A stretch of 64,000 bases of DNA from the NCBI GenBank assembly GCA_963767715.1, contig CAVYFA010000001.1:67517-131516 (forward strand). Reading direction: 5' to 3'. Both the position numbers and the translations under genes were made by a program. The stretch comes from an uncultured Chloroflexia bacterium. Lineage in GTDB: Bacteria; Chloroflexota; Ktedonobacteria; Ktedonobacterales; Ktedonobacteraceae. Below are positions 32,820 to 54,673 of this stretch, in pieces. Position 1 is the stretch's first letter. Each line of letters starts with the position of its first letter. The notes below the pieces were generated by a model, which was given only the letters and a program-made list of their open reading frames with translations, had not been told where the DNA came from and searched no databases.

Positions 32820-34827
32820 CTATTTCGAATCCTCACGAGTTTGTTCGATCAAGGTCGTAATTTCCTTTATAAGGGCCTTCTCGATAGAATAGGGGATAAC
32901 CTCGTGCAGACATTGTTCTGCAAGTGAAATGATATACATTTTGCTCTTATCATCCGCCGTGTGAAAAACTTTGAGAAGTTCTCTCATTATGCGATTCGTG
33001 ATACTTCTATCTTTACGGCTTAAATATGCTACAGCGAGCAAAAATGGTTCCCACCAGGTTTTATCAGGGTAAGATCCTTTAGTAACCAAATCCCTAACTA
33101 CGAACGAGCGAGCACGCCGATGATTGATGTTGCGAATGATATAGCGAGCAGCAAAATATTCTTGAAAAGTCTGATGATAAAATCCATATTCATTACCTAC
33201 ACAACGAACAAAAAGGCCACTGCGTTCACGAATACGCTCTAAAAATTGCTCAGCATCTTGCACTAAGTTAGTATTCATTGAGTGCCTTAGTGAAAGAATA
33301 ACTTCATCATGAGGTATAAATTTACGACCTTCTGACTGCATCGTTACAGCAAGGTCACCAAGACAGTTTATGGCCCAAGATTCTCGATTGGTGGAAGCGC
33401 CCTGCTTTCGCTATGACCTTCTAGTAGAAGACTTGTAGCTACTTCAAATAGTTCAATGCGTTGGCTAGGGAAATCCACTTTCTCCTCCCGAAAAAAAACC
33501 ACTACTAACAAGTAAAGCAACAAAGGATTGCTTGCTAGGTATTCCAAGTGAACATCACTATTAATAGCATCACCCAGGGTTTTCGCTCTTTTCTTTGCTT
33601 CGTCCAAAACCTCATTTTGTCTTAAATGAAAGCCTGGATTATTGGTAGCAAATTCGCGGCAATAGTCATTTAATAATTGTTCGATCTGAGTCCGTGTCAA
33701 GAGCGCGAGGGTGTAGAAAAAACATTCTACATCAGGAAATGCGTTGTGATCGAAACAAGCGGCTCGTGAAGTAATAAGGAAGCGATTATAAAAAGCAAGG
33801 CGTCCTCTCTTATAATATTTGATAAAACCATTGATGTCTCTCTGGACCCGAATGCGAATTTCTCTACCTACCTCGTCTAAACCATCAAATAACACAATGC
33901 ATCTCCCATCTTTCAGATACCTTTGAAGGATAGGAAAATGATCTTTCCAGTTTTCCTGCAAATATGATGTGATGGTAGCATCCATATGTCCGTCCTCGAT
34001 AAATTTAACATACTCTCTTAAGTTCAACAATATAGGAAATAATAGGGGATGAAGGCTTTGAAATACAGACAAATTGTAAATAAAATCGCTGCTCTTAAGA
34101 ATTGACGCTGCATTATTTAATCTGAGAAGCACGAGCATTCGCTCAGCAATATCATGCCAGCGATTTAGATGCTTAGTGGCCATATGGAAAGCAAGCCCTG
34201 CTAAGAGGGTGCTTTTCCCCATACCAGGATAACCGAGAATGACAGCTACCGGTCTTTCTCTCGTCAATCCATTCCAAATATAAGGAAAGTTGATTCTATT
34301 ATCCTCTTCAAGAGGTCCATACCAGCTTTTCTCATTCTTGAATAGCAGATACTCCTCAAATAGAGAGTTATTATTAATAGGAAATTCGTCATCGGCGTAT
34401 TCGGGTAGAAATCAGGAGAGGAAAAAATTGTCTTTAGCAAGGCGCTTCGACCTCTTATGTAAGTAGGGAGTCCTTCTGGAATAAGCATTTCCGTTTCCAC
34501 CTTCACGGAATGGAGATAATCACTCAACAACTTTCTTTGTGAAGGAGGGATTTCGACATCTCTTACTAAGAAGAAAAGGAATCGCAAGAGAAAGAGTATC
34601 AAAAATAGTAGGATGACGCTAATTGGATTTTGAAAACTCCATTCAAAAGCAGATCGGAGGTGATTAAGCCATAATTGGGGTAATGGTATAATTGGGCTTA
34701 CAGTATTGGCTACTATATCCACGAAAACGGCAAGAATAACAGAAATAAATACAAAATTTATGATAGGATTTAAAGTGCGGGATACTTTTGCAAGGAAAAC
34801 ACGTTGAGTAGAATCTTTATCTTGCAC
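32820..34827 (-). CDS. STAND NTPase (NACHT-like) with an N-terminal transmembrane region, on AT-rich DNA; currently split into three ORFs (34264-34827, 33368-34267, 32820-33341)
   Basis: Walker A 'VAVILGYPGMGKSTLLAGL', Walker B 'CIVLFDGLDEV', 'FLITSRAACF' (the NACHT arginine/sensor region) and a helical C-terminal extension. The upstream ORF encodes about four TM helices and overlaps by ATGA. GC is far lower than the surrounding genome. Confidence 0.6.
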
Positions 34828-35126: not shown

Positions 35127-35752
35127 ATGGAAGACCTCGAATCCCAGGATAGCCACGATTCACTATCTTTCGAACCTGCCAGTTCAGCAGTCGAAACCGC
35201 TGAGATGGAAGTTGCTAATTCATCCTCCATGGGGATATACCGGGATGTAATCGAGCAGGCGATTTTGCCACTACTTGTGGAATTGCGCGAACTTCGCCAG
35301 GACTTCGATACCAAGATCAAGTATGACGAGAGCAAAGAACGTCAGGTAGACAGCCTCCACAGAGAGTTGCAAAGCTACCGTGAGGGACTGCATTTTAAGA
35401 TTTACGCCCCCTCTTCATCGACCTCATCGCTGTGTATGATGATTTTGCTAAGCTCACAGAGAGTATGTCACTCCTTGAGTCGAATGATATCTCAAGTCAA
35501 ACCGTTGACAATCTGAGGTCATTCCAGGAAACGATTGAAGATATTTTAAATCGTAATGGGGTCGAGTCCTATAGCGTTGAAGGAGATAATTATATTCCCA
35601 ACCGGCAGCGCGTCTTGCAGGTCGTTGACACATTCGACCCTGCACAGGATAGGCTGGTTGCACGCCGAATACGTAAGGGTTTTGAGTATGAGGGCCGGGT
35701 GATACGTCCTGAAATCATCGCAACGTATAAAACTAGACAGGACAAAGAATAA
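35127..35752 (+). CDS. GrpE-like nucleotide exchange factor (frameshift at the CCCCC run ~35405)
   Basis: The C-terminal ORF 'FDPAQDRLVARRIRKGFEYEGRVIRPEIIATYK' matches the GrpE β-domain. N-terminal helical region is present. The frame break coincides with a 5-C homopolymer. Confidence 0.6.
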
Positions 35753-35808: not shown

Positions 35809-37482
35809 ATGATAATGAGCAACGAGGAAACCGTAGTATTCGGGATCGACCTCGGTACAACCTATTCGTGTATCGCTTATGTTGATGAGTATGGCAAGCC
35901 GGAAGTCGTCACAAATGAAGAGGGTGAACGTACAACCCCCTCTGTCGTTTTGTTTGAAAGCGCTGATGAAAGGGTCGTGGGTAAGGTCGCCAAAGAAAGT
36001 GCGGTGCTCTACCCAACGAAAGTGATCCAGATGGTGAAACGACATATGGGTGAGGAGAACTGGGAGCTCGAGTGTGATGGATTGCATTTCACCGCCGAGG
36101 AAATATCTTCCTACATTCTGCGCAAGCTGGCAAAGGATACAGAAGCTCAACTCGGCCGCCCGGTCACAGACGTGGTGATTACTTGCCCTGCCTATTTTGG
36201 TATTGCTGAGCGCGAGGCTACCGCCAACGCCGGAGAAATAGCCGGGCTGAACGTGCGTGAGGTGATTAACGAGCCAACCGCAGCAGCTATTGTTTACGGC
36301 CTCCAGAATGAACAGGATCAGGTTGTACTTGTCTATGACTTGGGCGGTGGTACCTTTGATATCACGGTGATCGAGATTAAAGCTGGCACAATTACCGTTG
36401 TGGCTACGGGCGGTGACCACAATCTGGGAGGCAAAGATTGGGATGCCGTAATTGTGGAATATCTGGCGCAGCAATGGATGGATGAGGCTAGTTCCTCGGA
36501 CGATCCCACAAGTTCTGAGGAGACATTACAGGACCTGTGGTTACGCGCGGAATCAGCAAAGCGGACACTCTCCGCTAAACAGGAAACCAATGTTCCTGTC
36601 ACTCATGCAGGCCAGCGCAAGGGAATTGTATTAACACGCGACAAATTCAACGAACTGACTAACAATTTGCTCGAAAGAACTATAGATTTTACCAAATCAA
36701 CGATTGAGGCAGCGAAGAGTCGCGGCTACACGCAATTTGATCAAATTTTGCTGGTGGGTGGCTCGACTCGCATGCCTCAGGTACAGGAACGCTTGAAGGC
36801 AGAGTTTAGTATCCCACTCAAGATGCATGATCCTGATGAGTCGGTCGCGAAAGGCGCCGCGATCTACGCACAGAAACTGACGCTCGATCAGAAGATCCAG
36901 CATAAAATTGCTGAGCTAACAGGCACAAAGATTGATAATGTTGATCAATCCAAGGTCTCTGAGCAGGTGCTGGAGCGTGCGCAACAGGAAGTAGCTCGCG
37001 ATTTCAGGCTTAAAAATCGGCATGGTGAAAAAGTACGCCGAGATGGAAGTTACCAACGTGGCAAGCCACAGTTTCGGTATTATCGCGATAGATGCAAGGA
37101 CAAACTCGGAGGTCATCTCCAACATTGTGCTTGCCAACCAACCCGTCCCCGCTTTCCAGACGAAAACATTCCATACCCTTGAAGCGGGGCAGCGTGAAGC
37201 CGACTCAAAGTCATGGAGAACGGATACGAGACTGAGGTCGTCAACGACATCACTGCTGGTGAAGAGATTGGCAAAGCGTTGCTGTCATTGCCTTCTGGAT
37301 TGCCCATCAATACACCGGTCGAGGTCACGTTTGAGCTAAACCGAGAAGGGAGGCTCCAGGTGATCGGTCGAGAACCAAGAAGCAATGCAACTATCGAGGT
37401 TACTGTACAGACGAAGCGGGGAATGTCTGAAGAAGAGGTGGAGCAGGCGAAGACTCGTGCAAACCGTGTAGCCATTTCATAG
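35809..37482 (+). CDS. Divergent Hsp70/DnaK-family ATPase (#1), ~555 aa, two apparent frameshifts in the substrate-binding-like region (~37030-37210)
   Basis: NBD motifs 'VFGIDLGTTYSCIAY', 'DLGGGTFDITVIEI', 'GGSTRMPQVQERL', 'DPDESVAKGAAIYA'. The C-terminal β-rich segment continues in ORFs 37022-37339 and 37213-37482. Confidence 0.85.
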
Positions 37483-37567: not shown

Positions 37568-39645
37568 TTGAATAGTTTTGTCGGCATCGATCTCGGAACA
37601 ACTTACTCCGTGATTGCCTTCATCAATGCAAACGGCAAGCCAGAAATTATCCCTAACGAGTATGGACATGCGACGACTCCTTCAGTCGTCTACCTTGGTG
37701 GCGAGAAGCTGGTTGTCGGCGAAGATGCCAAAGAATTCCAGGCCATGGGGAAACAGGAGGTTGCCTCTTTTTTCAAGCGCAACATGGACGATATCTACTT
37801 TATGCTGTCGTTCAATGGAAGAACTACACTCCTGTAGACCTCTCAGCAGAAGTTCTTGCGTATATGAAAGCCCAGGCAGAGCGTCATTTGGGCAGTCCGG
37901 TAATCGATGCCGTGATTACTGTTCCTGCCTATTTCACACACGTGCAACGTTCCGCAACAATCAAAGCCGGGCGTAAGGCGGGCTTGAACGTCCTTAAGAT
38001 TATAAGCGAACCTACTGCCGCCGCACTGGCCTATGGGTTGCGCCCCAGCAACGAAAGACAGCGCGTGCTGGTTTACGACCTTGGTGGTGGCACCTTTGAC
38101 ATTTCGTTAGTTGAGATTACTCCCAACGAAATCAAAGTGCTGACCACTAATGGAGATCACAATCTGGGTGGCAAAGACTGGGATGATCGCTTAATAGAAT
38201 ACGTCGATAGCCTGTTCCGTGCGGAATTCAGCACGGACCTGATTGGGGACGACTTTAGCGAGTTGCGCATCCAGTCTGAAAGACTTAAGCAAACACTCTC
38301 TTCGCGCCAAAGCGGGGAGGTCCGCGTGCAGGCAGCAGGCAATGCCGGTACCTATTCAGTGACAAGGGAGAAGTTCGAGGAGCTTACGCTCGACTTAATG
38401 GAACGCACACAAATGCTGACAGAGCTTGTCTTGTCTGAAAAAGGCCTGACCTGGCAAGACCTCGATGGCGTTTTGCCCGTTGGCGGTTCGACCCGGATGC
38501 CAATGGTGCGTAACTATATCCAGCGTATGTCGGGGAAACCTCCCATGGCGGGCATCAATCCCGACGAAGCGGTTGCTCTGGGCGCTGCCATTCAAGCAGG
38601 CATGGAGATAGAGACGGGGCGAGATGCCAATCAGCCGATTTTTCGCCTAGCTGGGCGTAAATCCACCACAGACGTGATCGCTCACAGCCTGGGCATGATT
38701 GCAGTAAACGACGACCGTACGCGCTATATCAATAGTATTCTAATCGGAAAAGACCTGGAAATACCCTCAGCAAAAACACGACCTTACACAATGAACATCC
38801 GCCAACGGAGCGAGACGGAAATGGAGGTCTTTTTGACGCAGGGCGAGAGCGAAGACCCCCAGCAATGCGCCTATCTTGGCCGATATATCTTCTCAGATTT
38901 TCCGCCCATTGCCAGTAAAACAACGCCTGTGGATGTAACCTATGAGTACGATAAAAATGGTGTCGTGCACGTCTCCGCTGTCGAACGTTCAGCCGGTACG
39001 CCCTTGAAATTGCGTGTCGAGCCGGTTCCTCCTGATGTACCAGCGCGTTTTACCGGGTCGCCTAAAGATCAAGAAGTGCGCGAACATTTAACGGTATACC
39101 TGGCCTTCGACCTTTCTGGCAGTATGAGCGGTCGCCCACTTAAAGAAGCGAAGCGAGCCGCCGAGAAATTTGTCAGTCAGTGCGACTTGTCCTCTACCTC
39201 GCTAGGCTTGATCTCCTTCTCGGATAGCGTACAAGTTGACCAGAGCGCAACTCAAAATGGGAGAGAGATCATGCGGGCCATTGCCGGTCTCACCATCGGG
39301 CGAACCGGATATGGAAACCTCGGTCACCCCTTTAATGAATTATATAATCGCCTGATGCAGGCTCCAGGTATACGTTATGCAATCGTGTTGGCCGATGGTG
39401 TCTGGTCCCACCAGGACACCGCTATCAAGCACGCGAAACATTGCCATGAGGCTGGCATTGAAATAATCGCCATCGGCTTTGGAGGAGCCGATCGCGCATT
39501 CCTTGCGAAAATCGCATCGTCGTCCGAACAGAGTTTTTTCACAGACATGAGTCGGCTGGCAGAAACATTCAGCACCATCGCTCAGGAACTGACAGAGTCG
39601 GGAGGCGAAAAACGGCCCTTTGGAAAATTGGGCTGGAAGCCTTAA
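37568..39645 (+). CDS. Hsp70/DnaK-family ATPase (#2) fused to a C-terminal von Willebrand factor A (vWA) domain; one frameshift ~37815-37825 (aaa to aa)
   Basis: NBD 'FVGIDLGTTYSVIAF', 'DLGGGTFDISLVEI', 'GGSTRMPMVRNY', 'NPDEAVALGAAIQA'. C-terminal MIDAS 'VYLAFDLSGSMSG' plus 'IVLADGVW'. GGGAGGA RBS with a TTG start. Confidence 0.85.
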
Positions 39646-39681: not shown

Positions 39682-42600
39682 ATGGCTGGAGAGCAAACGA
39701 CCGCCAAACCTAACTTTTTCATTCTGCTCGGGTTCCATCCCGATGATCCCTGGGATCAGAAGAAGTTTGAGGAGACGCTGAAAGCGAAACGCGGTGAATG
39801 GTCGCGCAAAAGCAGCGGCGTAGGTAATGTGGAATGGAGGCCAGGAGAAATCTCGCGCTCTACGGTGAGATTAAGCAGTCATGGCCGACAAGACCAGGCG
39901 CGACGCCGAGGCAGAAGCAGCCAGAAAGGAACGGCTGGCGGGGCAAAGCGCGAAAATAGACCAGTTCGAGCGGCAGGTAGAAATGCTCGCCAGAAAAAGC
40001 TTTCTGGAACAAACCGAAGTTGACAGACTGGTTGCTGACTTTAAGGATGTTCTCACAGAACGAGAGATCAGAGCCGTATTAAAGTGCCGGTTAAAGCATC
40101 CGATCCCCAGGTCGGAAAAACGCAACAACAACTTGAGCCAGCGACTGTCAAGGCCATCAACCAGCGGCTCCAACCGCTCCAAAAGAAAGACCTCTATGAC
40201 TTGCTGGGGATGTCACCGAGCGTCTCAAGCGATCAACTTCTCAAGGCCGCACAAGCACTGGCCGAAGATATGCTGCGCCGCCAGCCAAAGACGCAGGAAG
40301 TCACCATGCAGGCGGAACTGGCGGGTCACGCAAAAACGATTTTCAAAACCCAGGAGATGCGCCAGAAGTACAACGAATCTTTGCGTTATAGCACTCTGAA
40401 TGCGCTTTTAGAGGAGTTTGAGCAAACCGTCGCCATTCAAAAGGGTCGCCTTTATGCCGGGCAGGTGGCCACGTTTCTGGAACAGGCAGCCCGCGCGCGC
40501 TGGTCAAAGGAAGAAGCGCGCGCCAAGTTGAACGAGTATGCCAAAAAGCGAAGTTGGTTGTCGAGGTGCCGACTATCGAGATCGGCAACGAGAAACAGCG
40601 CTGCGGTGACTGTGAAACGATGAACGACAAAGGGCGCGAATATTGTGTCAAGTGCAACGGTCAACTCCGTTTCACCTGCCCAGATTGCGGCAACGCTGTT
40701 AGCTCTGACGAAGTTGGATGCGGCAAATGTGGTTTTCCCGTTGGCAATCGCTACTGGGTCGATAGCCTTCTCACTGAATGCCAGACGCTGCTGACTCAGC
40801 ACGATCTGAAGGCTGCCAATGAGCAACTCATGCTGGCGGAAGAGGCCTGGACGCCAAAGAAACCCGATACCCGTCTCAAGCGGATCCAGGAGTATCGCGC
40901 CGAAATCCGCCGCCATGAGCAGGCTCAACAGCAGAATATTGAGCAACTGAAAGCATATATCAATAAGCACCAATTCTTCACCGCGCGCGATTACCTGGCA
41001 CAGCAGCCACCGGATGCCCTCCCCGATAAAGAGAGCTATCTGCAAATCATCACGGGCGAAATTACCCAGGCCCAGGCACTGCTTAAAAAGACCAGGACAA
41101 TCACCGATACTACTCAGAAGTTTGATCTGTGTGTTCAGGCGCTGCGCATCTGCACAGATTATCAAGAGGCGCGAGATGTCTTGAGCACTACCCCACCTTC
41201 CCCCCCCAAGAATCTCAGCGTAAAGGTTGGCGACTCCACAATCAGCTTACAGTGGAACCCCTCGCCGACACGCGACGTCAGCTACATAATTGTGCGTAAA
41301 ACGCGCTCGCGGCCGGTATCGGTGAAAGACGGGCAAATTCTCGCAAGGGTCGGCGGGCGCATGTACGATGACACACAACCGGAAATTGGCATATCGACCT
41401 TCTACTCCGTTTTTGCTGCCTTTGAAGATATTACTTCTATCGAGGCCGCCACACTGCAGCACCCCATTATGCTTACAGCAGAAGTGGAAGACATAAAAAA
41501 GCGTATTGACAATCGGCTGGTCGAGCTGACCTGGAAAGCTCCTCAAAATGTTCATACAATCATGGTTGTGCGCAAGGAGAAAATGGCTCCTGCTTCCGTC
41601 GAGGACGGGGTAAAGGTCGCGCCGCTAGACCTGCAGCACTTGGTTGATCGAACCGTGAAAAACGAGTGCCTCTACTTTTATAGCATTTTCTGTCAGTTCA
41701 AAGATCATGATGCACGCATTATCACAACGACAGGGATGACGGTAAACGCAACACCAGAAACGCCTCCTGAGATCATCCGGCGTTGGATATTTCGAGCCAG
41801 AAAGTTGTCAAGGGCTACGATGTAAAGCTGCGTTGGGCCACACCCCCCAAGGGTGAGGTCGTCATACTTAAATCAGCGCAGCCTCTTGCTGTGAGAGCCG
41901 GTGAAGCACTGGCGATACGCGAACTCACCCGCTTTGGAAATTTACTGAAAGAACATCCCGATTCCTGCACCGATCGAGAGGCACATCCAGGTGTCGCATA
42001 CTACACGCCGGTCGTTATTTTTCAGGGTACCGCCTATGTCGGTGCGGCGCAACGTCTTGCGTTGATAGACGACGTGAGCGATCTCAGATATCAAAATCTC
42101 GGCTCGGCCATACGTTTAAACTGGAACTGGCCCGCGAATTGCCAGGAGGCTATAGTCGCCTTCGACTATAATGGGTATCCGCAGTTAAACGGCAGAACGC
42201 CCAATGCGCACAAAGTGATGCGCGCAGAATATGAGCACAGAGGATTTTATGATATTCGCGGAAACATGGAGCGAGATCACTATATCGTCGTGGCGGCAGT
42301 AATCCGGCAGGGCAATGACGAGATAATTGGTCCTGGCGCACGGGTGCAGGCTCGCCTGATCAGCAAGATTGTTCTGAGCTATGAGATCAAGCTTCCACGC
42401 TTGTTCGGCCCAAAGAAGCGTATACTCAGCATCTCATCGCGTACGGCAGGCAAATTGCCCAACCTGCTACTGGTGAGCAAACAGGGCCGATTGCCCTTGC
42501 GCCGGGAGGAAGGTGAAGCCTATTTTCGCCTGCAGGGGCCAATCCCGATTGAGAGTACGCTGGAATTTGAATTGCCGGACAAGTCGTTCGGCCCTAAAAC

Positions 42601-42688
42601 GTTCGGCAAACTCTATCTTGAAGATGATGGACTGTATGAGATGGTGACGATTCACCATCCCAGCGAAGATAAGTTGAGGCTTTCATAA
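39682..42688 (+). CDS. Large multidomain protein (~1000 aa, 3-4 frameshifts): degenerate J-like N-terminal segments, a double zinc ribbon and four FN3-like β-sandwich repeats
   Basis: 'NFFILLGFHPDDPWDQKKFEETLKAKRGEW' and 'DLYDLLGMSPSVSSDQLLKAAQAL' look like J-domain helices but lack HPD. 'CGDCETMN...CVKCNG...CPDCGNAV...CGKCGFPV' is a double zinc ribbon. Repeats are marked by 'PPKNLSVKVGDSTISLQWNPS', 'LVELTWKAPQN', 'VKLRWATPPKG', 'IRLNWNWPAN'. Confidence 0.45.
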
Positions 42689-42692
42689 TGCA

Positions 42693-43861
42693 ATGTTAGG
42701 CCAAAAGATTATCTGCCCATTCTGCTTCGAATCATTTTCGGTCCAGGAAATACAATTTCGCTGCCTCAATCCCAGTTGCACTGGACGAGCGGTCGATCAG
42801 ATCTATGCCGAAGCGCGAAATGTCCCACCATTGCAGATGGGCCACGTAATCAGCGCAAAAAAGACCTCTTTCGGGGTGGCCCGTACGGTCGATTGTGATG
42901 TGTGCAAGAAGGAAGCGCGCACGCGCCTCTGTCCCAGGTGCCATTTTGAGCTTTCCCACGATGTAGGGCAGGTCGATCAAAAAATCATTGCGATTATCGG
43001 CGGCAGCAATACCGGTAAGAGCCACTACATCGCTTCGCTAATCACTCGTTTGCAGCATGTCGTTGGCGGGAACTTCAATTTCGCCGTCTCTATGCTCGGT
43101 GACGGCACAAGAGAACGCTGGCACAGGGATTTCTACACGCCCCTCTTTGAGAACAAGCGGGTGCTTCAGCCAACACAGCGCTCAACTGTCGATACCATTG
43201 TAAAGACCCCACTGATCTTCCGGCTGACATTCAAAGATGGCAACAACATACGAGCATTGAATATCAGCTTCTTCGATACTGCAGGTGAGGATATGTCCAA
43301 ACTACAGGTCGATGCCCTCTCAGTTGAAGCCCGTTATATCTGCAAAGCTGATGGGTTGATCGTTTTGCTCGACCCTCTCCAGATCGAAAGCGTTCGCCAA
43401 CAATTACCCAACATACAAAAGCCATAGCCAGACCCGATGGCACGCCCCGAATTTATCGTTGAGCGTCTACGCGAGCTGATGGAAGGCTATCATAATCTGT
43501 CCGGTTCGAAAAAAATTTCTATTCCGGTCGCTTTCACTTTCTCCAAAGTCGATACGCTCAGGAGCATTGTTGCTCCTGATTCGGCATTCTCCAGCACAGC
43601 ACGCACTATGGTGAGCTTGACCTCCCCGACGTACAATCGGTGAGTACCGAAATCGGTAACTACGTGCAAGCCTGGATTAATACCGGTTTCTACAATGAGA
43701 TCGATTATAAATTCGCCAACTATCGTTTCTTCGGCGTCTCTTCCCTGGGCAACCAACCTGATTCTTCTGGACAGGTCAAGGTCGAGCCGCTGCGCGTTGA
43801 GGACCCTTTCCTGTGGATACTGCATCAGTTTAAGATGGTCAAAGGGAAGAAAGGGAGGTAA
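42693..43861 (+). CDS. Double-zinc-ribbon-fused P-loop GTPase (~390 aa; frameshifts at ~43430 and ~43640)
   Basis: N-terminal 'CPFCFE...CLNPSCTG...CDVCKKE...CPRCHFE'. G1 'IIGGSNTGKSH', G3 'FFDTAGED', G4 'FTFSKVD', G5-like 'GVSSLG'. The C-terminal 'VEDPFLWIL' is shared with the 47122 paralogue. It starts 4 nt after the previous stop. Confidence 0.65.
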
Positions 43862-43863
43862 TT

Positions 43864-46800
43864 ATGGCGGTTTTCCAGCATTATTACACATCATACGTCA
43901 ATAGGGAGACAGGAAGCGCGGGATTTCAGGTCAAAGCGATGTCGCCCGGAATCGCCGCCGATACGCAATCGACCATTACACGCCTGATATCATATCGTAT
44001 TCCTTCCAGGCTTGACGAGTACGCTATCTCTACACATCCCGTGGCTTTGCGTTACTACTATCGAAATCCGCAAGAAGCGATTTTACTGTGCAGTCAATCC
44101 AATGGGACTGACGAAAATGGGCGTCCCGGCAATTTTTTTGCGCATAGCCTGGTAGTCGAGCCCGACTTTTTCGCCAGTATGCCGCCTATTTTATACTGGC
44201 GCAGCCCTTTCTGGCGTACAAAGGACCCAGGATCAAGCGCGGTGATAGAGCCGATAGAAAGCCTGGAAGAGATCGCAACAGCGCTTGATATCGAGGGGGT
44301 ATGGCATTTCCTCGCTCAAGGAAAACGCATCGAACAATTCCATAAGCTCATGAGCGCCGTCGTGCATTGCAACAGTACACAACGCCGCATTGTGATTATT
44401 GACAACGCAGATAACGTTGCGCAGTGGATCGCGGCGATCACGATCATGTTGCCGCCCGACTACCGGCCATTACTCAGTTTTGCCACCTATCATCATGATC
44501 CCTACCAGTCGCAATTTATGGTGACGGGCACGACCAGCGATTCTTCGTTCCGCGCTTCGCCTGAAGAGTATATGAGCTACTTCATACTGAACACACAGAA
44601 CGGCAAGATCAGTGATGTCGAAGCTTCGCCTTACGCCGATGAAGCTGTCAGAGCTGCTCGCTCTTATGAAATCTACGAGTCGAAACTGCTCTCTCTTATC
44701 ACAGATACCGTGCCGCGTTTCCAGCGTCCAACCCGCATTGATGAGCAACTCGATTCAATGGCGTTGTATGCAGGGATGCTCGAGCCAAACCACGCGTTCT
44801 CTTTAAACAGAGAAGAACTGGAAGCAATAAGTGTAGTCCTGACAACATTTGAACAGATGCGCGTTTTTACGCAAGAAGACCTGGACGAAGTGCGACAGAT
44901 AAGCTATCTGCTCCAGGAAACATCTTGGTCCCAGAGTGCTGAGGATATCGATGTCGAAAGCCGGCGTGTGGTCACTCTGCTCAGAAAACATAAAGCGCCA
45001 ACAGAACAGTCAGCGCTACGTGAGATAAAGTATATCACACAGCACCTTATCAACGATGTAGATATATCGTCATCACTCCAACGCCTGGAAAACATGCGCC
45101 AGATTTACGGCGAAGATCTATTGATCGATATTGTCAACAGTACTAACTACCTACAATGGCTGAACAAGCTTGCCGAAACAATCAATGCAGCACAACTGTC
45201 ACAAATCTGGAAATACCTGGCTGTTTATCTCAATCCAGGCCCCCACAGCCAACCTTTTACGATAGCCAGTTTAACAATCGTGGGGATACTCTGGAGTGAC
45301 AAACAGGCCCAGAAAGACGTAAGAAGGGCGATCGAGGCTATGGTACAGGCAATGGCTGGACAGGAAGCTGCCTGGCTGGAACTAATTGCGGCAAACTACA
45401 ATGTGCTGCCAGACGGGATACTCCTTCGTTACTACTGCTGGATGATGGTTGGCCGATTCCCTCTTGACAACCGCCTACCCTATCGAGAGATTGTGCAGCG
45501 TGTGATTCCCCACATCATTAAAAATGAGCTTGTCCACGAAATCTCTAAAGCCGGTGAAGCCAATAGTCTTGCGATACTGGAGGAATGGGTTGATCATGCC
45601 AGAAAGAATCACTTGGTATCGCTCACAGATTTGCTGATCGAAGGTATTAAACGTATCTTGAGGAATACCCCAGATGGAAAAGCGCCAGAGATGGCAGCGA
45701 AAATTTTAGTGAATGAAAGGTTGGCGCCACTGCCAACGGAATTGGAGAATGATCTTGTTTCTACAGCCATATCACAGGTTTCACTGAGCCATTACTCGCC
45801 CTTAGTGCTGGAGTTATGTAAGAAGTACAGAAACCGGCATGGCCTCTCATCCGATATTCGCGCCGTCATGGATGGGCTGATAGCCATGTCAAGCGGAGAG
45901 TTGGATGAGGAACTCGCGAAGCGCCTGCAAGACAGATTTGCTAGCATGCGACCAGAAGCGTACGAGGCGGATACAAAGAGCTTTGTAACTCGATTTCTCC
46001 AGGTTTGTACCACGGGTCGCTCTCATCAGCTCATGATAAATACCTTCTTCGATTGGGATTACCCTAAGACATTTTGGCAAGTCTACTGGCGTGCATTCAC
46101 GGGATTGCTAACCTATCCAGATACCTCAAGAGTGGATCAGGCGATGAAACTCTTGTCGTTCTGGTTCAGTGCTAGACCGGATGACTTTGAAAGCGCGTAT
46201 CTCTTACACAACTTTCTCATGGATTTACCTCAAAAACTTGAAGAGGTGCAGGAGACCCGCGGCTTCCAAGAGGCAGCACGATATATCAATTCTAGGGCCG
46301 AATCAGAGCGATGGTATCCTCTGGTGCAGGATTACTTTTCGGGTCGAACTAGTGCTTTGCAGACAGTAGGGCGAACCCTGGCTACGCATATCCAGAAACT
46401 CAGAGCAGAAGATAGTGAAAAGGCCGCCCGACAGGCAGAAAAAGAGCAGAGAGAACGCGCAGCCCTTGATGAGCGCATCTCAGCGATGTTTGATAAGAGG
46501 AAATCGAGCCAGTATCATCTTCGGATAGTTGGCGATGTCTATGAATGGCAACAGCGTGAGCTTTTCTGGTCAATTTATTGGAGCCATTTCAAATCTTTGT
46601 TCACCTCTGAGAATAATGCGCAGTGCATTCTTGATCTCTTCCACTTCTGGTTTGACGACTCGTTCTCAGTTCTGCCACAGAAAGGATATATTCCCCGGCA
46701 GTTCTTCCTCAAATTGCACGATGCTTTGATGGAGGCGCAGAAAGAGCGAGGTTTCCGTGAGCTCGCTCGCAACATCTTTAGAATAGGAAAGCAACAGGTG

Positions 46801-46878
46801 CAAGTCTACCCATGGTTTGTATTGATACAACCCTACCTTGAGGAACAGGAAAAGCGGTTTGGTATCTTCAGGCGATAA
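43864..46878 (+). CDS. Large (1004 aa) predominantly α-helical protein of unknown function; candidate GTPase-associated component
   Basis: GGAGG RBS. Uninterrupted ORF. N-terminal α/β-like region 'MAVFQHYYTSYVNRETGSAGFQVKAMSPGI' followed by ~800 aa of helical repeats. It lies between the two DZR-GTPase genes. Confidence 0.55.
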   Translation: MAVFQHYYTSYVNRETGSAGFQVKAMSPGIAADTQSTITRLISYRIPSRLDEYAISTHPVALRYYYRNPQEAILLCSQSNGTDENGRPGNFFAHSLVVEPDFFASMPPILYWRSPFWRTKDPGSSAVIEPIESLEEIATALDIEGVWHFLAQGKRIEQFHKLMSAVVHCNSTQRRIVIIDNADNVAQWIAAITIMLPPDYRPLLSFATYHHDPYQSQFMVTGTTSDSSFRASPEEYMSYFILNTQNGKISDVEASPYADEAVRAARSYEIYESKLLSLITDTVPRFQRPTRIDEQLDSMALYAGMLEPNHAFSLNREELEAISVVLTTFEQMRVFTQEDLDEVRQISYLLQETSWSQSAEDIDVESRRVVTLLRKHKAPTEQSALREIKYITQHLINDVDISSSLQRLENMRQIYGEDLLIDIVNSTNYLQWLNKLAETINAAQLSQIWKYLAVYLNPGPHSQPFTIASLTIVGILWSDKQAQKDVRRAIEAMVQAMAGQEAAWLELIAANYNVLPDGILLRYYCWMMVGRFPLDNRLPYREIVQRVIPHIIKNELVHEISKAGEANSLAILEEWVDHARKNHLVSLTDLLIEGIKRILRNTPDGKAPEMAAKILVNERLAPLPTELENDLVSTAISQVSLSHYSPLVLELCKKYRNRHGLSSDIRAVMDGLIAMSSGELDEELAKRLQDRFASMRPEAYEADTKSFVTRFLQVCTTGRSHQLMINTFFDWDYPKTFWQVYWRAFTGLLTYPDTSRVDQAMKLLSFWFSARPDDFESAYLLHNFLMDLPQKLEEVQETRGFQEAARYINSRAESERWYPLVQDYFSGRTSALQTVGRTLATHIQKLRAEDSEKAARQAEKEQRERAALDERISAMFDKRKSSQYHLRIVGDVYEWQQRELFWSIYWSHFKSLFTSENNAQCILDLFHFWFDDSFSVLPQKGYIPRQFFLKLHDALMEAQKERGFRELARNIFRIGKQQVQVYPWFVLIQPYLEEQEKRFGIFRR

Positions 46879-46906: not shown

Positions 46907-47104
46907 ATGGACGATGGGTGCGTAGCAATCCTTGGCTTTATCGTGATTGCTGCTATTGCGATTGCTCTGATCGTGTATGTGGTTTTACCACTAAGTTTGT
47001 TCTTACTTGGTAGCGTTGTTGCCGCTGGAACGGTCTCTGGAGTAGGGGTAGCAGGGAAAAACTTTTACGAATTACTCGTAGAAGCTCACAAAACCATAAA
47101 GTAA
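46907..47104 (+). CDS. Small (65 aa) two-TM membrane protein
   Basis: AGGAAAGAG RBS. 'CVAILGFIVIAAIAIALIVYVVLPLSLFLLGSVVAAGTVSGVGVAG'. Confidence 0.4.
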   Translation: MDDGCVAILGFIVIAAIAIALIVYVVLPLSLFLLGSVVAAGTVSGVGVAGKNFYELLVEAHKTIK

Positions 47105-47121: not shown

Positions 47122-48654
47122 ATGGCTATTTTCGAACCCCAACCCGCATTTAAGATATACGCGTTTGAACGGGGCTGGCGCATAATGAAATATGTCACAG
47201 AGAACCTCTTCAAGCGCACCGATGTTGCTGCTCGCTGGTGGTTTACAAAGGCGGAAGATGCTAAGACGCGCAGTACAACTCAGGGAGCATTTGTAAAGTA
47301 CTGGATGTATGTATATATGGCAGGGCTGTATCTGGCTGGTGGTGCGCAGTACGTTTCCGCCATGATACTGGCTGCTCTATTTCTGCTAGTACAGTCAATC
47401 CTCCTCTCGCTCTGGGTTGTGTTCTCTATCATTACCATAGGCATCCTTTGGCTCTGTACATTTGCCTACTCGCGCCTCTATCGCATATTCTACCGCTGCC
47501 CTGACTGTCACAAGGAAATGAGCATCCCCACCTTCATTTGCCCGAACTGTAGCGAGAAGCATTCGCAATTGTGGCCCAGTATCTACGGCATCGTCTCACA
47601 TTGTTGCATCAAGTGCAATACCAGGCTCCCCACATTGCGCATAGATATTCCGGGGATGAAACTCAAGAAACGCGATAGCCTCGTTCGCATTTGCCCAAAT
47701 TGCTCCAGTCAGATCAACGCAGCCATTGGAACGGGGACAAATATTCATTTCCCAGTTGTAGGAGGACCTTCCACAGGTAAATCAAACTTCATCGTCATGG
47801 CCACGAAAGAATTTATCCAAACCTATGGCGATGAGCATCACTACTCGATCTCCTTCACTGATAGTAGGCACGAGCTAGATTTCAATGAGAATGTCAGGCG
47901 ACTCTCGACCGGACACGCGCTAGTCGCGACGACGGAGGTTGTGGCTCGGGCCTATAACCTGAAGATCCAATCTCCGAAAGCGCATGTGCCGAAGATTGCC
48001 TACATATACGATGCCGCAGGTGAGGCATACAACACCAGTGAGAACACCTCACAGCAAGAATATTACAAGTATATCGATGGGATAATCTTCGTGATTGATC
48101 CTTTCTCTATTCCGACTTACCGCAGCCAGCATGTCCAGGCAATTGAACACTATCAGAATCTGATCCGCCCAAGTTCGCTGGATGTAATGCAGGCATACGA
48201 GCGCATGTTCAATATGTTTGAAGATTTTGCAGGCTTGCGCAAGGGACGTCGCTTTACTCATCCGATCGCGGTCGTGGTGACAAAAGTCGATGCGCTCAAC
48301 CTGGAATTTGAGATTGGATCAATTGCCGCTCAGCAGACAATGAGTACCACTCCTTCTCTAGCATCTGAGGGCGATGCAATTAATTTGCTGGTACGCAACT
48401 TCCTGTGCCAGAACGACCTTGATCACTTCGTCCGCGATATCGAAATGCAATTCTCTAATGTGCGCTACTTCTCCTGTTCTGCACTTGGACGTATGCCGGT
48501 GCAAGAGGATAACCGCAGCTTCATGCCCGTGCGCGTCAGTGACCCGTTTATCTGGCTACTAGCACGCACTAAAGCTATCGACGCCATACCGAATACCGGA
48601 AGGGTAACGCGCGTCCTCGGCCCACAAGTCATGACTATGCGACAAGAGAACTAA
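47122..48654 (+). CDS. Membrane-anchored double-zinc-ribbon GTPase (paralogue of the 42693 gene), 510 aa, intact
   Basis: TM helices 'YLAGGAQYVSAMILAALFLLVQSILLSLWVVFSIITIGILWL'. 'CPDCHKE...CPNCSEKH...CCIKCNT...CPNCSSQ'. G1 'VVGGPSTGKSN', G3 'IYDAAGEA', G4 'VVTKVDA', G5 'CSALG'. C-terminal 'VSDPFIWLL'. Confidence 0.7.
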   Translation: MAIFEPQPAFKIYAFERGWRIMKYVTENLFKRTDVAARWWFTKAEDAKTRSTTQGAFVKYWMYVYMAGLYLAGGAQYVSAMILAALFLLVQSILLSLWVVFSIITIGILWLCTFAYSRLYRIFYRCPDCHKEMSIPTFICPNCSEKHSQLWPSIYGIVSHCCIKCNTRLPTLRIDIPGMKLKKRDSLVRICPNCSSQINAAIGTGTNIHFPVVGGPSTGKSNFIVMATKEFIQTYGDEHHYSISFTDSRHELDFNENVRRLSTGHALVATTEVVARAYNLKIQSPKAHVPKIAYIYDAAGEAYNTSENTSQQEYYKYIDGIIFVIDPFSIPTYRSQHVQAIEHYQNLIRPSSLDVMQAYERMFNMFEDFAGLRKGRRFTHPIAVVVTKVDALNLEFEIGSIAAQQTMSTTPSLASEGDAINLLVRNFLCQNDLDHFVRDIEMQFSNVRYFSCSALGRMPVQEDNRSFMPVRVSDPFIWLLARTKAIDAIPNTGRVTRVLGPQVMTMRQEN

Positions 48655-49136: not shown

Positions 49137-49903
49137 TTGATTATGCATAATCGTGAAGGGGCAGAATTTACCGAGAGGCAATCTCAAAGTAAGGATAATG
49201 CATTTGAAAGACGTCACGCAGGCTTCAGGTCTAGTAGAGATGCAGGAGCTCAAAGTGACGCATATAACGCTAATGAGCGAGTTAAAACGGCATCAAGCAG
49301 ACTGGAAGATGGTAATCGGCATCGGGTTTTTAGATCGGAGGAGACTTCTACCAAAGCCCAGCAAGATAAAGTCATGAGTATTCTGACCTGAGTGGCCAGG
49401 AAACAGAGAGAAGACAATTTTCTACAATTGAAGGACGCACTGTTCGGTTATCCCAGGAGGAAATCAAAGCGGTCAAATCGGCACTGGCTACTGAGCAAAG
49501 TATAGACAAAAACCGGTTTCCGCCTGAAAAGACGGCTGCGGCTGTTGAAGGTGGACCCTGCACCCTTAGTGGATGGGAACATGGGAAAGAGGATTTTGTA
49601 CAGGCAATGGAAGATGTGAGAATACGCTCTCAGCAAATTGGGCACGAGCTGAGGCCCCACAAGCTATTCGATAGAGGAGTTCCTGGACGATTCAATGCAT
49701 CTCATGCAGAGAAGCAGATATCAGTCGTTGCTCCTGATAAACCAATTGCTGTCTCAAAGCCAATGTGCTCAGATTGCCAATCATATTTTCGAGCCACCGC
49801 ACGATACACAGAGAAATCGCAAGTCGTTGCTGATTCTCGTGTAGTGAGGATTTTTTATCCTGATGGTAGAGTTGTAGAGTTACCAAAAAGTACATTTGCA
49901 TAA
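49137..49903 (+). CDS. Candidate toxin: charged N-terminal region joined (frameshift ~49388) to a C-terminal deaminase-fold-like domain (HAE...PMCxxC)
   Basis: 'GRFNASHAEKQISVVAPDKPIAVSKPMCSDCQSYF' has the zinc-ligand spacing (H-x-E, then ~24 aa, then PC-xx-C) of the nucleic-acid/nucleotide deaminase superfamily. The reading frame is open from 49388 without an ATG and continues the 49137 ORF after a 1-nt shift. Confidence 0.35.
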
Positions 49904-49916
49904 TAGGAGCAAAATA

Positions 49917-50582
49917 ATGTCGCTTCCAACTGAATTGACCCAGGTCATCAAGAATGCGCAGGATGCTGTGGAGAAGCATCCATACCACGATTTAAATCTT
50001 GGTTATCGACAGGCTATCTGGGCCGCTCTTGGGCCTTCTCTAAAAACATCTCAAAGAGGTGGTAACAATGCCGGTTTAAAGAGGCGCGCCTTTTTAGCAA
50101 TACTAACAACGCGATATGTCTTGCCAATTTGGGAACGGGTCAGGCCAGAAGATCATATCCTACAAGACCTGCTTGCCGAAGCGGAGCAGGTTTTGACCGG
50201 CACTGTTGACAAGGAAACGGCCTGGAATGATAGAGACCGGTTTTGGGTATATTTTGTTGATATGGGGAACGAAGATGAAAAAAAACAAATCATTTCAGGC
50301 GTGGGTTTTGCTGCAGTTCATGCTCTTACTGTTGCGTTGCAGGATGAAAGTTTTGATCCTTCTAACATAAACTACAATCTCACGGATGCTGACATAGACC
50401 CGGACGAGATGGACTCCTCCTTCTTCGCTGCCTCTACCTATGCCAATGGTCCGGTTTCGGAACCAGATTCTGATGCTGAGAAACGACGAGATTTTTGGGA
50501 GTGGTGGTCAACCAGGCCGTTCCTGCTGCCTGGAATGCTGCTTCTTAAAGAGCGCATAGTAATGCTTGACTCAAGCGTATAG
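49917..50582 (+). CDS. Candidate immunity protein (acidic, helical, ~220 aa), overlapping the end of the deaminase-like gene
   Basis: AGGAG RBS inside the last codons of the upstream gene, with ATG at 49917. The operonic overlap is typical of toxin-immunity pairs. There is no recognisable catalytic motif. Confidence 0.4.
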   Translation: MSLPTELTQVIKNAQDAVEKHPYHDLNLGYRQAIWAALGPSLKTSQRGGNNAGLKRRAFLAILTTRYVLPIWERVRPEDHILQDLLAEAEQVLTGTVDKETAWNDRDRFWVYFVDMGNEDEKKQIISGVGFAAVHALTVALQDESFDPSNINYNLTDADIDPDEMDSSFFAASTYANGPVSEPDSDAEKRRDFWEWWSTRPFLLPGMLLLKERIVMLDSSV

Positions 50583-54500: not shown

Positions 54501-54673
54501 CTATAGCCAGGGCGGCTCAAACTATCGTCAGCAACTGGCTTGGCGAGTCAAAGAATGCTGCTCTCCCGGACCTGGCCTATTGCGCCGCCCTTCATGTAGA
54601 GTCAGAGACAGGATTGACCGAGTATGAACAGAGGAAGTTCGGAGAATCGCTCAGCACGGAATTGCTCACCTAG
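51581..54673 (+). CDS. HerA/FtsK-superfamily (DUF87-like) ATPase, ~1000 aa, fragmented by several frameshifts
   Basis: Walker A in an alternate frame at ~52700-52760 'IDLDDLAKHGVVVGVTGSGKTTTVMNLL'. 'VIFEEAHRLL' (53465-53500). 'EVRAYGQGVLVAEQIPAKLAPDVLKNTNLKIAHRLVAQDDRQSV' matches the HerA-type 'EGRKyGvgl..SQRPs.l...vlsqcnt.ialrl' block. The ~210-aa C-terminal helical domain is intact. Confidence 0.55.

What the first reader, a model, noticed from the sequence alone, without database searches (positions are those of the whole stretch)
39682..42688. J-like (HPD-less) segments + double zinc ribbon + four FN3-like repeats in one ~1000-aa protein
The N-terminal segments mimic J-domain helices II/III but lack the HPD needed to stimulate Hsp70. 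This suggests a decoy or specialised co-chaperone for the adjacent Hsp70s. The FN3-like repeats would give a binding surface. The gene is broken by three or four single-nt frameshifts that need resolving.
Basis: inference. Interest (0 to 1): 0.6.

Follow-up and report, generated by a model that had tools for sequence, protein, structure and literature searches.

The report
J-like FN3 subunit of GTPase–Hsp70 system
This is one ~1000-residue gene, split in the assembly by five one-base gaps, that encodes the fibronectin-repeat subunit of a bacterial GTPase–Hsp70 "conflict" operon already described by comparative genomics; what is new is that its two J-like domains and the partner Hsp70s have both lost the residues needed for normal J-domain activation.

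Summary
Positions 39682-42688 (+) encode one ~1000-aa protein. It is broken by five (not 3-4) net -1 frame changes. It has two J-like domains without HPD, a double zinc ribbon, a helical region and five (not four) FN3-like beta-sandwiches.

Twenty-nine intact full-length homologues exist (36-75% identity). The N-terminal double-J module has 437 representative clusters at E<=1e-30.

The operon is GrpE, Hsp70, Hsp70-vWA, this protein, ZnR-DO-GTPase, GAP1-N2/M, a 65-aa TM protein and a TM-ZnR-DO-GTPase. This is the "Hsp70 theme" of the GAP1-N2 DO-GTPase conflict systems of Kaur et al. 2020 (eLife), who already noted an FNIII-repeat protein fused to DnaJ. So it is a new member of a known, experimentally uncharacterised kind.

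New detail: none of 186 family members has HPD (J2 loop is mostly x-x-K). The operon's Hsp70s lack DnaK R167, the hydrophobic linker and part of the helix-II docking hairpin. The J-like domains therefore probably dock the dedicated Hsp70s rather than trigger them canonically.

The frameshifts are most likely assembly errors: 16 deletions, 2 insertions and 1 nonsense across the island, with invariant residues retained. Real recent decay is not excluded.

The parts
39682..42688 (+). Whole gene: double J-like + DZR + helical + 5x FN3 protein (~1000 aa), interrupted by five 1-nt gaps
   Evidence: full-length match to 29 intact homologues. Frame order is f1>f0>f2>f1>f0>f2.
39709..39889 (+). J-like domain 1 (J1). 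The helix II-III loop reads W-S-R-K-S, with no HPD. It contains frameshift sites 39832/33 and 39875.
   Evidence: AF2 model pLDDT 75; 14 of the top 16 Foldseek PDB hits are J-domains. HMM versus PDB gives only DNAJB8 at E=0.5.
39890..40098 (+). Long helix plus small alpha/beta module A. It contains frameshift site 40072/73.
   Evidence: AF2 secondary structure of P0001, residues 71-140; frame map.
40138..40386 (+). J-like domain 2 (J2)
   Evidence: The profile hits about 30 PDB J-domains over the full length, best E=1.5e-4.
40282..40290 (+). CAG-CCA-AAG = Q-P-K, the positional equivalent of HPD in J2
   Evidence: The AF2 loop is R201-Q-P-K-T205, between helix II (184-200) and helix III (206-221). 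Family variants are NPD, PPD, HPT and xxK.
40444..40568 (+). Small helical module B. It contains frameshift site 40559/60.
40575..40736 (+). Double zinc ribbon (four CxxC pairs)
   Evidence: Pfam PF12773 at E=1.6e-5; eight invariant Cys.
40737..41192 (+). All-helical region (seven helices; possibly TPR-like, not tested)
   Evidence: AF2 model, residues 354-505.
41193..42685 (+). Five tandem FN3-like beta-sandwiches (approx. 41193-41474, 41475-41771, 41772-42073, 42074-42364, 42365-42685). Frameshift site 41782/83 lies at the start of the third.
   Evidence: AF2 model; Foldseek PDB hits to multi-FN3 chains; precomputed Pfam Fn3_SaeA_2nd and Fn3_SaeA_5th on homologues.
35127..35752 (+). GrpE (one frame change)
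35809..37482 (+). Hsp70 paralogue 1 (NBD + helical insert + SBD-beta, no lid). It has E at the DnaK R167 position and two frame changes.
37568..39645 (+). Hsp70-vWA fusion. It has K at the DnaK R167 position, a DxSxS MIDAS motif and one frame change.
42693..43861 (+). Zn-ribbon + DO-GTPase2 number 1 (in-frame TAG at 43425-43427, one frame change near 43586)
43864..46878 (+). GAP1 (GAP1-N2 + GAP1-M), intact
   Evidence: Pfam E=1.4e-23 and 2.9e-15.
46907..47104 (+). 65-aa hydrophobic protein, intact
47122..48654 (+). TM + Zn-ribbons + DO-GTPase2 number 2, intact

Best explanation
The region encodes the FNIII-repeat subunit of a GAP1-N2-type double-GTPase (DO-GTPase) conflict system of the Hsp70/GrpE theme, probably in a Ktedonobacteria-like Chloroflexota genome.

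Shown:
- It is one gene.
- Its architecture is J-like, helix, small module, J-like, small module, double zinc ribbon, helical region and five FN3 domains.
- It sits in a conserved operon with GrpE, two Hsp70 paralogues, two Zn-ribbon GTPases and GAP1.
- Neither J-like domain has HPD anywhere in the family.
- The operon's Hsp70s keep their catalytic residues but lack R167, the hydrophobic interdomain linker and four residues of the lobe-IIA hairpin that binds J helix II.

Inferred:
- The two J-like domains act as dedicated docking modules. They hold the operon's own Hsp70s on a scaffold whose FN3 array and zinc ribbons contact a target or the GTPase/GAP1 switch.
- They do not trigger ATP hydrolysis by the canonical HPD-R167-linker route.
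- The GTPase-GAP1 pair sets the threshold, and the Hsp70/vWA proteins are the output assembly, as Kaur et al. proposed for the class.
- The five one-base gaps in this copy are most likely consensus errors of the assembly, so the organism probably has an intact gene.
For: Single gene: 29 intact homologues with ~100% coverage, and ORFs in isolates.

System identity:
- Pfam hits in the window: DO-GTPase2 (2.5e-12 and 4.5e-11), GAP1-N2 (1.4e-23), GAP1-M (2.9e-15), HSP70 and VWA.
- GrpE was identified by sequence reading and by the Pfam/NCBIfam GrpE calls on the L023 orthologue.
- The closest locus, L023, has the same eight genes, all intact.
- Synteny holds in 20+ loci from Chloroflexota, Actinomycetota and Acidobacteriota, with a partial, rearranged version in one cyanobacterium.
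- Kaur et al. 2020 describe exactly this theme, including FNIII fused to DnaJ.

J-likeness.

No HPD: 0 of 186 members. K is at the third loop position of J2 in 132 of 186. J2 helix II has a net charge of about 0, against +2 to +4 in canonical J-domains.

Hsp70 changes. The canonical roles of D35, R167, D393, D481 and helix II are in PMC7289447.

The double-J module is the constant core. It always follows Hsp70_1, even in short forms that lack the middle of the protein and lack Hsp70-vWA.

Artefact reading of the frameshifts:
- 16 deletions, 2 insertions and 1 nonsense across the island, nearly all in 2-3-nt runs.
- 78 of 79 invariant and 93 of 96 near-invariant residues are kept, and two of the four misses fall at my own reconstruction junctions.
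- The disrupted GTPase1 is 92-94% identical to L023, closer than the intact GTPase2 (85%) or GAP1 (61-77%).
- Two long-read bins of one sample differ by six 1-nt gaps against two mismatches over 10.4 kb.
Against: - No experiment exists for any member, so every mechanistic step is inferred.
- J1 is J-like only by predicted fold (Foldseek E>=0.1) and is not significantly similar to J2.
- The FN3 domains are not more variable than the rest of the protein (mean pairwise identity 0.44-0.55 against 0.48-0.52 for the J domains). This fits a structural scaffold better than a fast-evolving sensor.
- The frame disruptions are very unevenly spread. There are none in 4.8 kb (GAP1 to GTPase2). Long flank genes are intact, for example an 813-aa RelA/SpoT. 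There is one nonsense substitution. This pattern could also mean real, selective decay.
Confidence: 0.72

Rival explanations
1. The gene, and most of the island, is a genuine recently decayed pseudogene cluster. The five frameshifts are real mutations, and only GAP1 and the second GTPase are still maintained.
For: - Disruptions are more than ten times denser in the low-GC island (about 1.3-2.6 per kb in GrpE..GTPase1 and DUF87) than in the flanks.
- GAP1, the 65-aa protein and GTPase2 (4.8 kb) have none.
- There is a true substitution-type stop, TAG where L023 has Leu TTA.
- The neighbouring NACHT and DUF87 genes are also broken.
Against: - The indel:nonsense ratio is 18:1. Neutral decay should give many more substitutions than indels, and so several in-frame stops (general knowledge of mutation spectra; an inference).
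- There is no excess amino-acid divergence in the broken genes.
- Invariant residues are retained.
- There are no larger deletions inside the gene.
- Comparable long-read MAG loci show the same indel noise.
Confidence: 0.2
2. The J-like domains are catalytically competent but rewired. The conserved Lys of the J2 loop (QPK) pairs with the Glu that replaces DnaK R167 in Hsp70 paralogue 1. This would make an orthogonal J-Hsp70 pair insulated from housekeeping DnaK/DnaJ.
For: - K is at the third loop position in 132 of 186 members.
- E is at position 167 of Hsp70_1 in all Ktedonobacteria and actinobacterial loci.
- The D393 and D481 equivalents in Hsp70_1 are also acidic.
- GrpE is present and the ATPase residues are intact, which argues for a real nucleotide cycle.
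- In DnaK/DnaJ, R167H suppresses D35N (PMC7289447).
Against: - There is no covariation. Loci with PPD, PPT, HPT or NPD loops still have E167.
- The hydrophobic linker that transmits the J signal is missing.
- J2 helix II is not basic.
- No complex model could be run.
Confidence: 0.2
3. One reading: an HPD-less decoy that competes with genuine J-proteins and so inhibits Hsp70.
For: The protein has a J-like fold without HPD. J-like regulators without HPD exist elsewhere, for example mitochondrial Pam16 (own knowledge).
Against: - No HPD-bearing J-protein is encoded in any of the loci for it to compete with.
- The operon Hsp70s themselves lack the J-responsive residues.
- The protein is a large multi-domain scaffold in a GTPase operon, not a small competitor.
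Confidence: 0.08
4. The pieces are separate small genes, or are joined by programmed -1 ribosomal frameshifting.
For: All five shifts go in the same direction.
Against: - Intact single ORFs occur in every good-quality homologue.
- There are no slippery heptamers at the sites.
- The same kind of shift is scattered through unrelated neighbouring genes.
Confidence: 0.01

Closest known systems
FNIII-repeat component of GAP1-N2-type DO-GTPase conflict systems, Hsp70/GrpE theme (Kaur, Burroughs, Iyer, Aravind, eLife 2020; PMC7159879)
   Same: - Tandem FNIII repeats with an N-terminal DnaJ-type domain.
- An operon with GrpE, an Hsp70, a second Hsp70, a Zn-ribbon DO-GTPase, GAP1 (N2+M) and a second, membrane-anchored DO-GTPase.
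   Different: - The paper places the theme mainly in actinobacteria and firmicutes. This clade is mainly Ktedonobacteria/Chloroflexota, with members in Acidobacteriota and one cyanobacterium.
- The paper does not mention two J-like domains, the missing HPD, the double zinc ribbon in this subunit, or the altered Hsp70s.
- Here the second Hsp70 is fused to vWA, and both Hsp70s retain an SBD-beta.
Canonical J-domain proteins (DnaJ/Hsp40, CbpA, HscB)
   Same: A four-helix J fold. J2 has full-length profile similarity to it. The gene is adjacent to an Hsp70 and GrpE.
   Different: No HPD in 186 members. The helix II-III loop is three residues shorter. J2 helix II is uncharged. There is no Gly/Phe region, no DnaJ-type CxxCxGxG zinc finger and no DnaJ C-terminal domains.
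J-like proteins without HPD, e.g. mitochondrial Pam16/Tim16 (own knowledge, not tested here)
   Same: A degenerate J fold used as a structural or regulatory partner in an Hsp70 machine rather than as an ATPase trigger.
   Different: Pam16 works by pairing with a true J-protein (Pam18). No true J-protein is encoded in these operons.
Pfam Fn3_SaeA_2nd ... Fn3_SaeA_5th (PF25832-PF25835)
   Same: Precomputed hits of these families occur on most homologues, consistent with at least five FN3 modules.
   Different: The families are absent from the local Pfam copy. I could not find what SaeA is. The hits are flagged faint or weak.

Membership tests
GAP1-N2-type DO-GTPase system, Hsp70 theme (Kaur et al. 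2020) | GAP1 protein with GAP1-N2 and GAP1-M domains in the operon | tested here: met
   PF20013 at E=1.4e-23 and PF20014 at E=2.9e-15 on 43864-46878.
GAP1-N2-type DO-GTPase system, Hsp70 theme (Kaur et al. 2020) | One or two DO-GTPases with N-terminal zinc ribbons, the second one with TM helices | tested here: met
   PF19993 on 42693-43427 and on 47122-48654. There is a hydrophobic stretch at aa 58-117, and CxxC pairs lie before the P-loop of the second GTPase.
GAP1-N2-type DO-GTPase system, Hsp70 theme (Kaur et al. 2020) | A protein with tandem FNIII repeats, N-terminally fused to a DnaJ domain | tested here: met
   AF2 plus Foldseek hits to multi-FN3 chains. The J2 profile hits PDB J-domains.
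GAP1-N2-type DO-GTPase system, Hsp70 theme (Kaur et al. 2020) | Linked Hsp70 and GrpE genes, optionally a second Hsp70 | tested here: met
J-domain (Pfam DnaJ, PF00226) | Four-helix J fold / sequence similarity to J-domains | tested here: met
   - J2: about 30 PDB J-domains, best E=1.5e-4.
- J1: fold only, with probability up to 0.97 but E>=0.1.
- Pfam DnaJ itself scores only E=0.059 on one homologue, below its cut-off.
J-domain (Pfam DnaJ, PF00226) | Invariant His-Pro-Asp in the helix II-III loop, required to stimulate Hsp70 ATPase | tested here: not met
   0 of 186 family members have HPD in either domain. The window has Q-P-K in J2 and S-R-K in J1.
J-domain (Pfam DnaJ, PF00226) | Basic helix II that docks on the acidic lobe-IIA hairpin of Hsp70 | tested here: inconclusive
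   J2 has a mean net charge of about 0 and J1 about +1.9, against +2 to +4 in five reference J-domains. The partner hairpin is four residues shorter.
J-domain (Pfam DnaJ, PF00226) | Stimulates the ATPase of a partner Hsp70 | not testable with these tools
   This needs biochemistry.
Double zinc ribbon (Pfam DZR, PF12773) | Two consecutive zinc ribbons, four CxxC pairs, score above the gathering threshold | tested here: met
   Four invariant CxxC pairs. The window scores 25.4 bits against a cut-off of 27.3; homologues score 31-33.5 bits.
Known anti-phage defence systems (PADLOC-DB 2.0) | Match of any operon protein to a defence-system model | tested here: not met
   There is only a spurious LmuB hit at E=2.5e-4 on the coiled/helical part, and nothing for the other eight proteins.

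The most novel reading that the evidence does not exclude
The xxK loop of J2 and the R167-to-Glu change in the operon's first Hsp70 form a charge-swapped, orthogonal J-Hsp70 pair. This would be a private chaperone circuit, insulated from DnaK/DnaJ, that an immune-type GTPase switch uses to assemble or remodel an Hsp70-vWA effector.
Probability: 0.18. Interest if true: 0.7.

Novelty: new member of a known kind. Interest (0 to 1): 0.38.

Why it matters
The DO-GTPase/GAP1 systems are among the large predicted conflict systems of multicellular bacteria for which I found no experimental study. The Hsp70-containing theme is the only one in which a chaperone machine appears to be the output.

HPD is absent from all 186 sampled members of the J-like module, a family with 437 representative clusters at E<=1e-30. 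The partner Hsp70s have lost R167 and the hydrophobic linker. Together this gives a concrete, testable statement about how this machine departs from the textbook Hsp70 cycle. It also points to intact orthologues in the isolates Dictyobacter and Thermosporothrix, which would be better experimental entry points than this broken copy.

For the scan itself, the practical lesson is that this window carries many one-base indels in its low-GC island. Gene calls there should not be trusted without correction.

Tried and rejected
- Charge-swap covariation. I tabulated the J2 loop against the residue at DnaK position 167 in about 20 loci. E167 stays constant whether the loop is QPK, NPD, PPD, PPT or HPT, so there is no covariation support.
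- J1 versus J2 by hhalign: not significant, so an internal duplication is not demonstrable by sequence.
- Pfam on the raw ORF pieces gave nothing for the N-terminal fragments. The reconstructed protein was needed.
- Exact look-up of the window's GAP1 protein, to find the source contig: not on record.
- Meaning of 'SaeA' in the Pfam names: two literature searches found only unrelated uses, such as SaEAS alarmone synthetase and clinical acronyms.
- Foldseek against afdb50: the library was unavailable.
- Pfam on suspicious flank ORF pairs, to find split domains: uninformative. This was replaced by a codon-usage Viterbi scan.
- NCBIfam and PADLOC gave no names for the FN3, GTPase or GAP1 proteins.
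- Source names for the NCBI copies: none.
- The 'rapidly evolving FNIII sensor' expectation: not seen in this clade.
Full report
**What is in the sequence**

Between 39682 (ATG) and 42688 (TAA) the + strand carries a chain of overlapping ORFs in alternating frames. I concatenated the frame pieces into a 999-aa translation.

This translation matches 29 proteins of 1000-1026 aa over essentially its whole length, at 36-75% identity. All of these are uninterrupted.

Single ORFs of 996-1040 aa are also present at the homologous place in five isolate genomes:
- Dictyobacter vulcani
- Thermosporothrix hazakensis
- Ktedonobacteria bacterium brp13
- Aetokthonos hydrillicola
- Micromonospora qiuiae

This is one gene.

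**Frameshifts in the gene**

Ungapped tblastn with the closest homologue (P0001, 75% identical) maps five frame changes. Each is a net loss of one base: 39832/33, 39875, 40072/73, 40559/60 and 41782/83.

**Architecture**

An AlphaFold2 model of P0001, made with the family alignment (mean pLDDT 83.7), shows the following order:
- a J-like helical domain (residues 12-69)
- a long helix
- a small alpha/beta module
- a second J-like domain (residues 154-253)
- a second small module
- four short beta-hairpins carrying eight invariant cysteines (the double zinc ribbon)
- seven helices (residues 355-503)
- five beta-sandwiches (roughly 508-598, 600-697, 700-798, 800-895 and 897-1003)

Evidence for the FN3 array:
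- Foldseek against the PDB returns multi-FN3 chains first: fibronectin Fn7B89 at E=5e-15.
- gp130 and the myosin thick-filament structures 8q6t/8g4l align over 540-570 columns.
- Precomputed Pfam labels on homologues, 'Fn3_SaeA_2nd' and 'Fn3_SaeA_5th', also imply at least five modules.

**Are the N-terminal segments J-domains?**

J2:
- A profile of the 29 sequences hits about 30 solved J-domains end to end.
- The best are DNAJB12 (E=1.5e-4), Tid1 (1.9e-4) and T. thermophilus DnaJ2 (1.5e-3).
- The only stronger hits are designer PPR repeats, which arise from repeat bias.

J1:
- The profile finds only DNAJB8, at E=0.5.
- hhalign does not link J1 to J2.
- An AF2 model of J1 alone (pLDDT 75) gives J-domains as 14 of the 16 best Foldseek PDB hits. 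These include Tid1 (probability 0.97, TM 0.61), CbpA, HscB and Ydj1.
- All of these have E>=0.1.

So J2 is a J-domain homologue. J1 is J-like by predicted fold only.

**HPD**

In the model, the J2 helix II-III loop is R-Q-P-K-T, three residues shorter than in DnaJ. The window encodes Q-P-K at 40282-40290.

Family variants at the same place are NPD, PPD, PPT, HPT, MPK, ANK and others. These support QPK as the positional equivalent of HPD.

I searched a profile of the N-terminal 300 residues against 1.84 billion representative proteins. It found 437 clusters at E<=1e-30 and 844 at E<=1e-10.

Among the 186 members I could inspect:
- None has HPD in either J-like loop.
- Lys occupies the third loop position of J2 in 132.
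- J2 helix II has a mean net charge of about 0, against +2 to +4 in five reference J-domains.
- J1 helix II has a mean net charge of about +1.9.

**Context**

Pfam on the neighbours and the closest intact locus (L023, a farmland-soil contig) give this operon:
- GrpE
- Hsp70 (555 aa)
- Hsp70-vWA (694 aa)
- this protein
- Zn-ribbon DO-GTPase2 (391 aa)
- GAP1 with GAP1-N2 and GAP1-M (1004 aa)
- a 65-aa hydrophobic protein
- a second DO-GTPase2 with an N-terminal hydrophobic region and zinc ribbons (510 aa)
- further on, a DUF87 ATPase

The core order is conserved in more than 20 loci from Ktedonobacteria and other Chloroflexota, Micromonospora and Plantactinospora, and Acidobacteriota. One cyanobacterium has a partial version.

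The double-J module always follows the first Hsp70. This holds even in short 544-aa forms, which keep only the double-J part and the last two FN3 domains and occur in loci without Hsp70-vWA.

**Comparison with the literature**

Kaur, Burroughs, Iyer and Aravind (eLife 2020, PMC7159879) defined the DO-GTPase/GAP1 'GTPase-centric' conflict systems. For the GAP1-N2 type they state the following:
- The systems contain a protein with FNIII repeats.
- About 14% of neighbourhoods carry HSP70 and GrpE, sometimes with a second HSP70.

They propose that the FNIII domains sense the invader, that the GTPase-GAP1 pair is the switch, and that Hsp70 or tubulin form effector assemblies.

The finding is therefore a member of a kind already described computationally. 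I found no experimental work on it. PADLOC and NCBIfam have no models for its specific proteins.

**What goes beyond the published description**

I aligned the operon Hsp70s to E. coli DnaK. The DnaK sequence came from memory and was checked by its length of 638 and by T199, R167 and N170 falling at the expected positions.

The operon Hsp70s keep the catalytic residues and an SBD-beta. They differ from DnaK as follows:
- R167 is replaced. In paralogue 1 it is E in all Ktedonobacteria and actinobacteria, and S, N or Y elsewhere. In the vWA fusion it is K, R, S or Q.
- A four-residue deletion falls in the lobe-IIA hairpin (DnaK 206-217).
- The hydrophobic linker VLLLD is missing. Paralogue 1 has a roughly 45-residue helical insert there.
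- The lid is missing.

In the canonical cycle (PMC7289447):
- The Asp of HPD pulls R167 away from D393 (linker) and D481 (SBD-beta).
- Basic helix II docks on the acidic IIA sheet.
- The docked linker is needed for ATPase stimulation.

The loss of HPD in the J-like domains is thus matched by loss of the corresponding receiver elements in the dedicated Hsp70s. My inference is that the J-like domains serve as docking modules in a private Hsp70 assembly rather than as canonical ATPase triggers.

A more exciting alternative is a charge-swapped pair, with loop Lys pairing with Glu167. The co-conservation of both residues suggests it. It gets no covariation support, because loops with D or T at that position still go with E167. 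I could not model the complex.

One expectation from the 2020 paper is not seen here. The FN3 domains of this clade are as conserved as the J-like domains, with mean pairwise identity 0.44-0.55 against 0.48-0.52.

**Frameshifts: error or decay?**

Using the intact L023 proteins as guides, the island (about 35-54.7 kb) has 16 net -1 changes, 2 net +1 changes and one nonsense codon. The nonsense codon is TAG at 43425-43427, where L023 has Leu TTA. Almost all of the frame changes fit the loss or gain of one base in a 2-3-nt run.

Arguments for assembly error:
- The indel:nonsense ratio of 18:1 is the opposite of what neutral decay should give. This is an inference from general mutation spectra.
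- 78 of 79 invariant and 93 of 96 near-invariant family residues are retained, and two of the four misses lie at my own junctions.
- Broken genes are no more diverged than intact ones. GTPase1 is 92-94% identical to L023, against 85% for GTPase2.
- Homologous loci from 'MFD' metagenome bins are fragmented in the same way. From my own knowledge, these are Nanopore assemblies.
- Two such bins from one sample differ by six 1-nt gaps and only two mismatches over 10.4 kb.
- A codon-usage Viterbi scan also finds a frame switch without a stop in the left flank, near 20577.

Arguments against:
- The disruptions are very uneven. There are none in the 4.8 kb from GAP1 to GTPase2.
- Long flank genes, such as an 813-aa RelA/SpoT with all its domains, are intact.

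I put about 0.8 on artefact and 0.2 on real recent decay. Only reads can settle it.

**Verdict**

It missed the GTPase/GAP1 system that explains the gene.

The gene is a new, probably mis-assembled member of a known but uncharacterised family. The matched loss of HPD and of the Hsp70 receiver elements is a modest new point worth testing in isolates that carry intact copies.

Noticed in passing
window 49607-50582 (+): There is an Imm5 immunity-protein gene at 49896-50582 (Pfam E=3.7e-36). It is immediately preceded by a 98-aa ORF ending in a Cys-rich C-terminus. This looks like the remnant of a polymorphic toxin/immunity cassette inside the same low-GC island.
   Followed up: partly
window 32820-34827 (-): A NACHT-type STAND NTPase is split into three consecutive ORFs, divergently oriented from the GrpE-Hsp70 operon. 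This is another broken immunity-type gene at the island edge.
   Followed up: partly
window 51581-54673 (+): A DUF87/HerA-like ATPase is homologous to the last gene of L023. It is broken by eight frame changes (seven -1, one +1).
   Followed up: yes
window 43425-43427: There is an in-frame TAG in the first DO-GTPase gene where the closest homologue has Leu (TTA). It is the only substitution-type disruption found in the island.
   Followed up: yes
window ~20500-20600 (+): The coding frame switches (codon-position GC and codon-usage Viterbi) with no stop codon in the upstream frame until 21133. This is a probable frameshift in a flank gene outside the island. There may be further ones at 55.0-57.8 kb on the minus strand.
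   Followed up: partly
window 32000-54000: G+C drops from about 0.57-0.63 in the flanks to 0.41-0.53. No tRNA gene is present anywhere in the window. The island boundaries and any repeats were not searched for.
   Followed up: no
P0021 (NCBI, 1735 aa; not in window): One protein fuses an Hsp70 nucleotide-binding domain, the double-J/DZR/FN3 protein and an NB-ARC STAND NTPase. Short tandem duplications sit at the first junction. It is either a real mosaic or an assembly or gene-call artefact.
   Followed up: no
L012 2462-4627, L015 2767-4326, L018 10001-11581: Short forms of the protein (about 544 aa) keep only the double-J module and the last two FN3 domains. They occur in loci that lack the Hsp70-vWA gene. 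Their J2 loops read PPT, PPD and HPT instead of xxK.
   Followed up: partly
L007 (Aetokthonos hydrillicola CCALA 1050): A full-length homologue with GTPase, GAP1 and GTPase downstream is present in a cyanobacterium. The 2020 survey calls the GTPase-centric systems nearly absent from cyanobacteria.
   Followed up: no
L021 vs L022: Two bins from the same metagenome sample share a 10.4-kb stretch at 99.92% identity that differs by six 1-nt gaps and two mismatches. One copy of the Hsp70 gene is frameshifted and the other is intact.
   Followed up: yes
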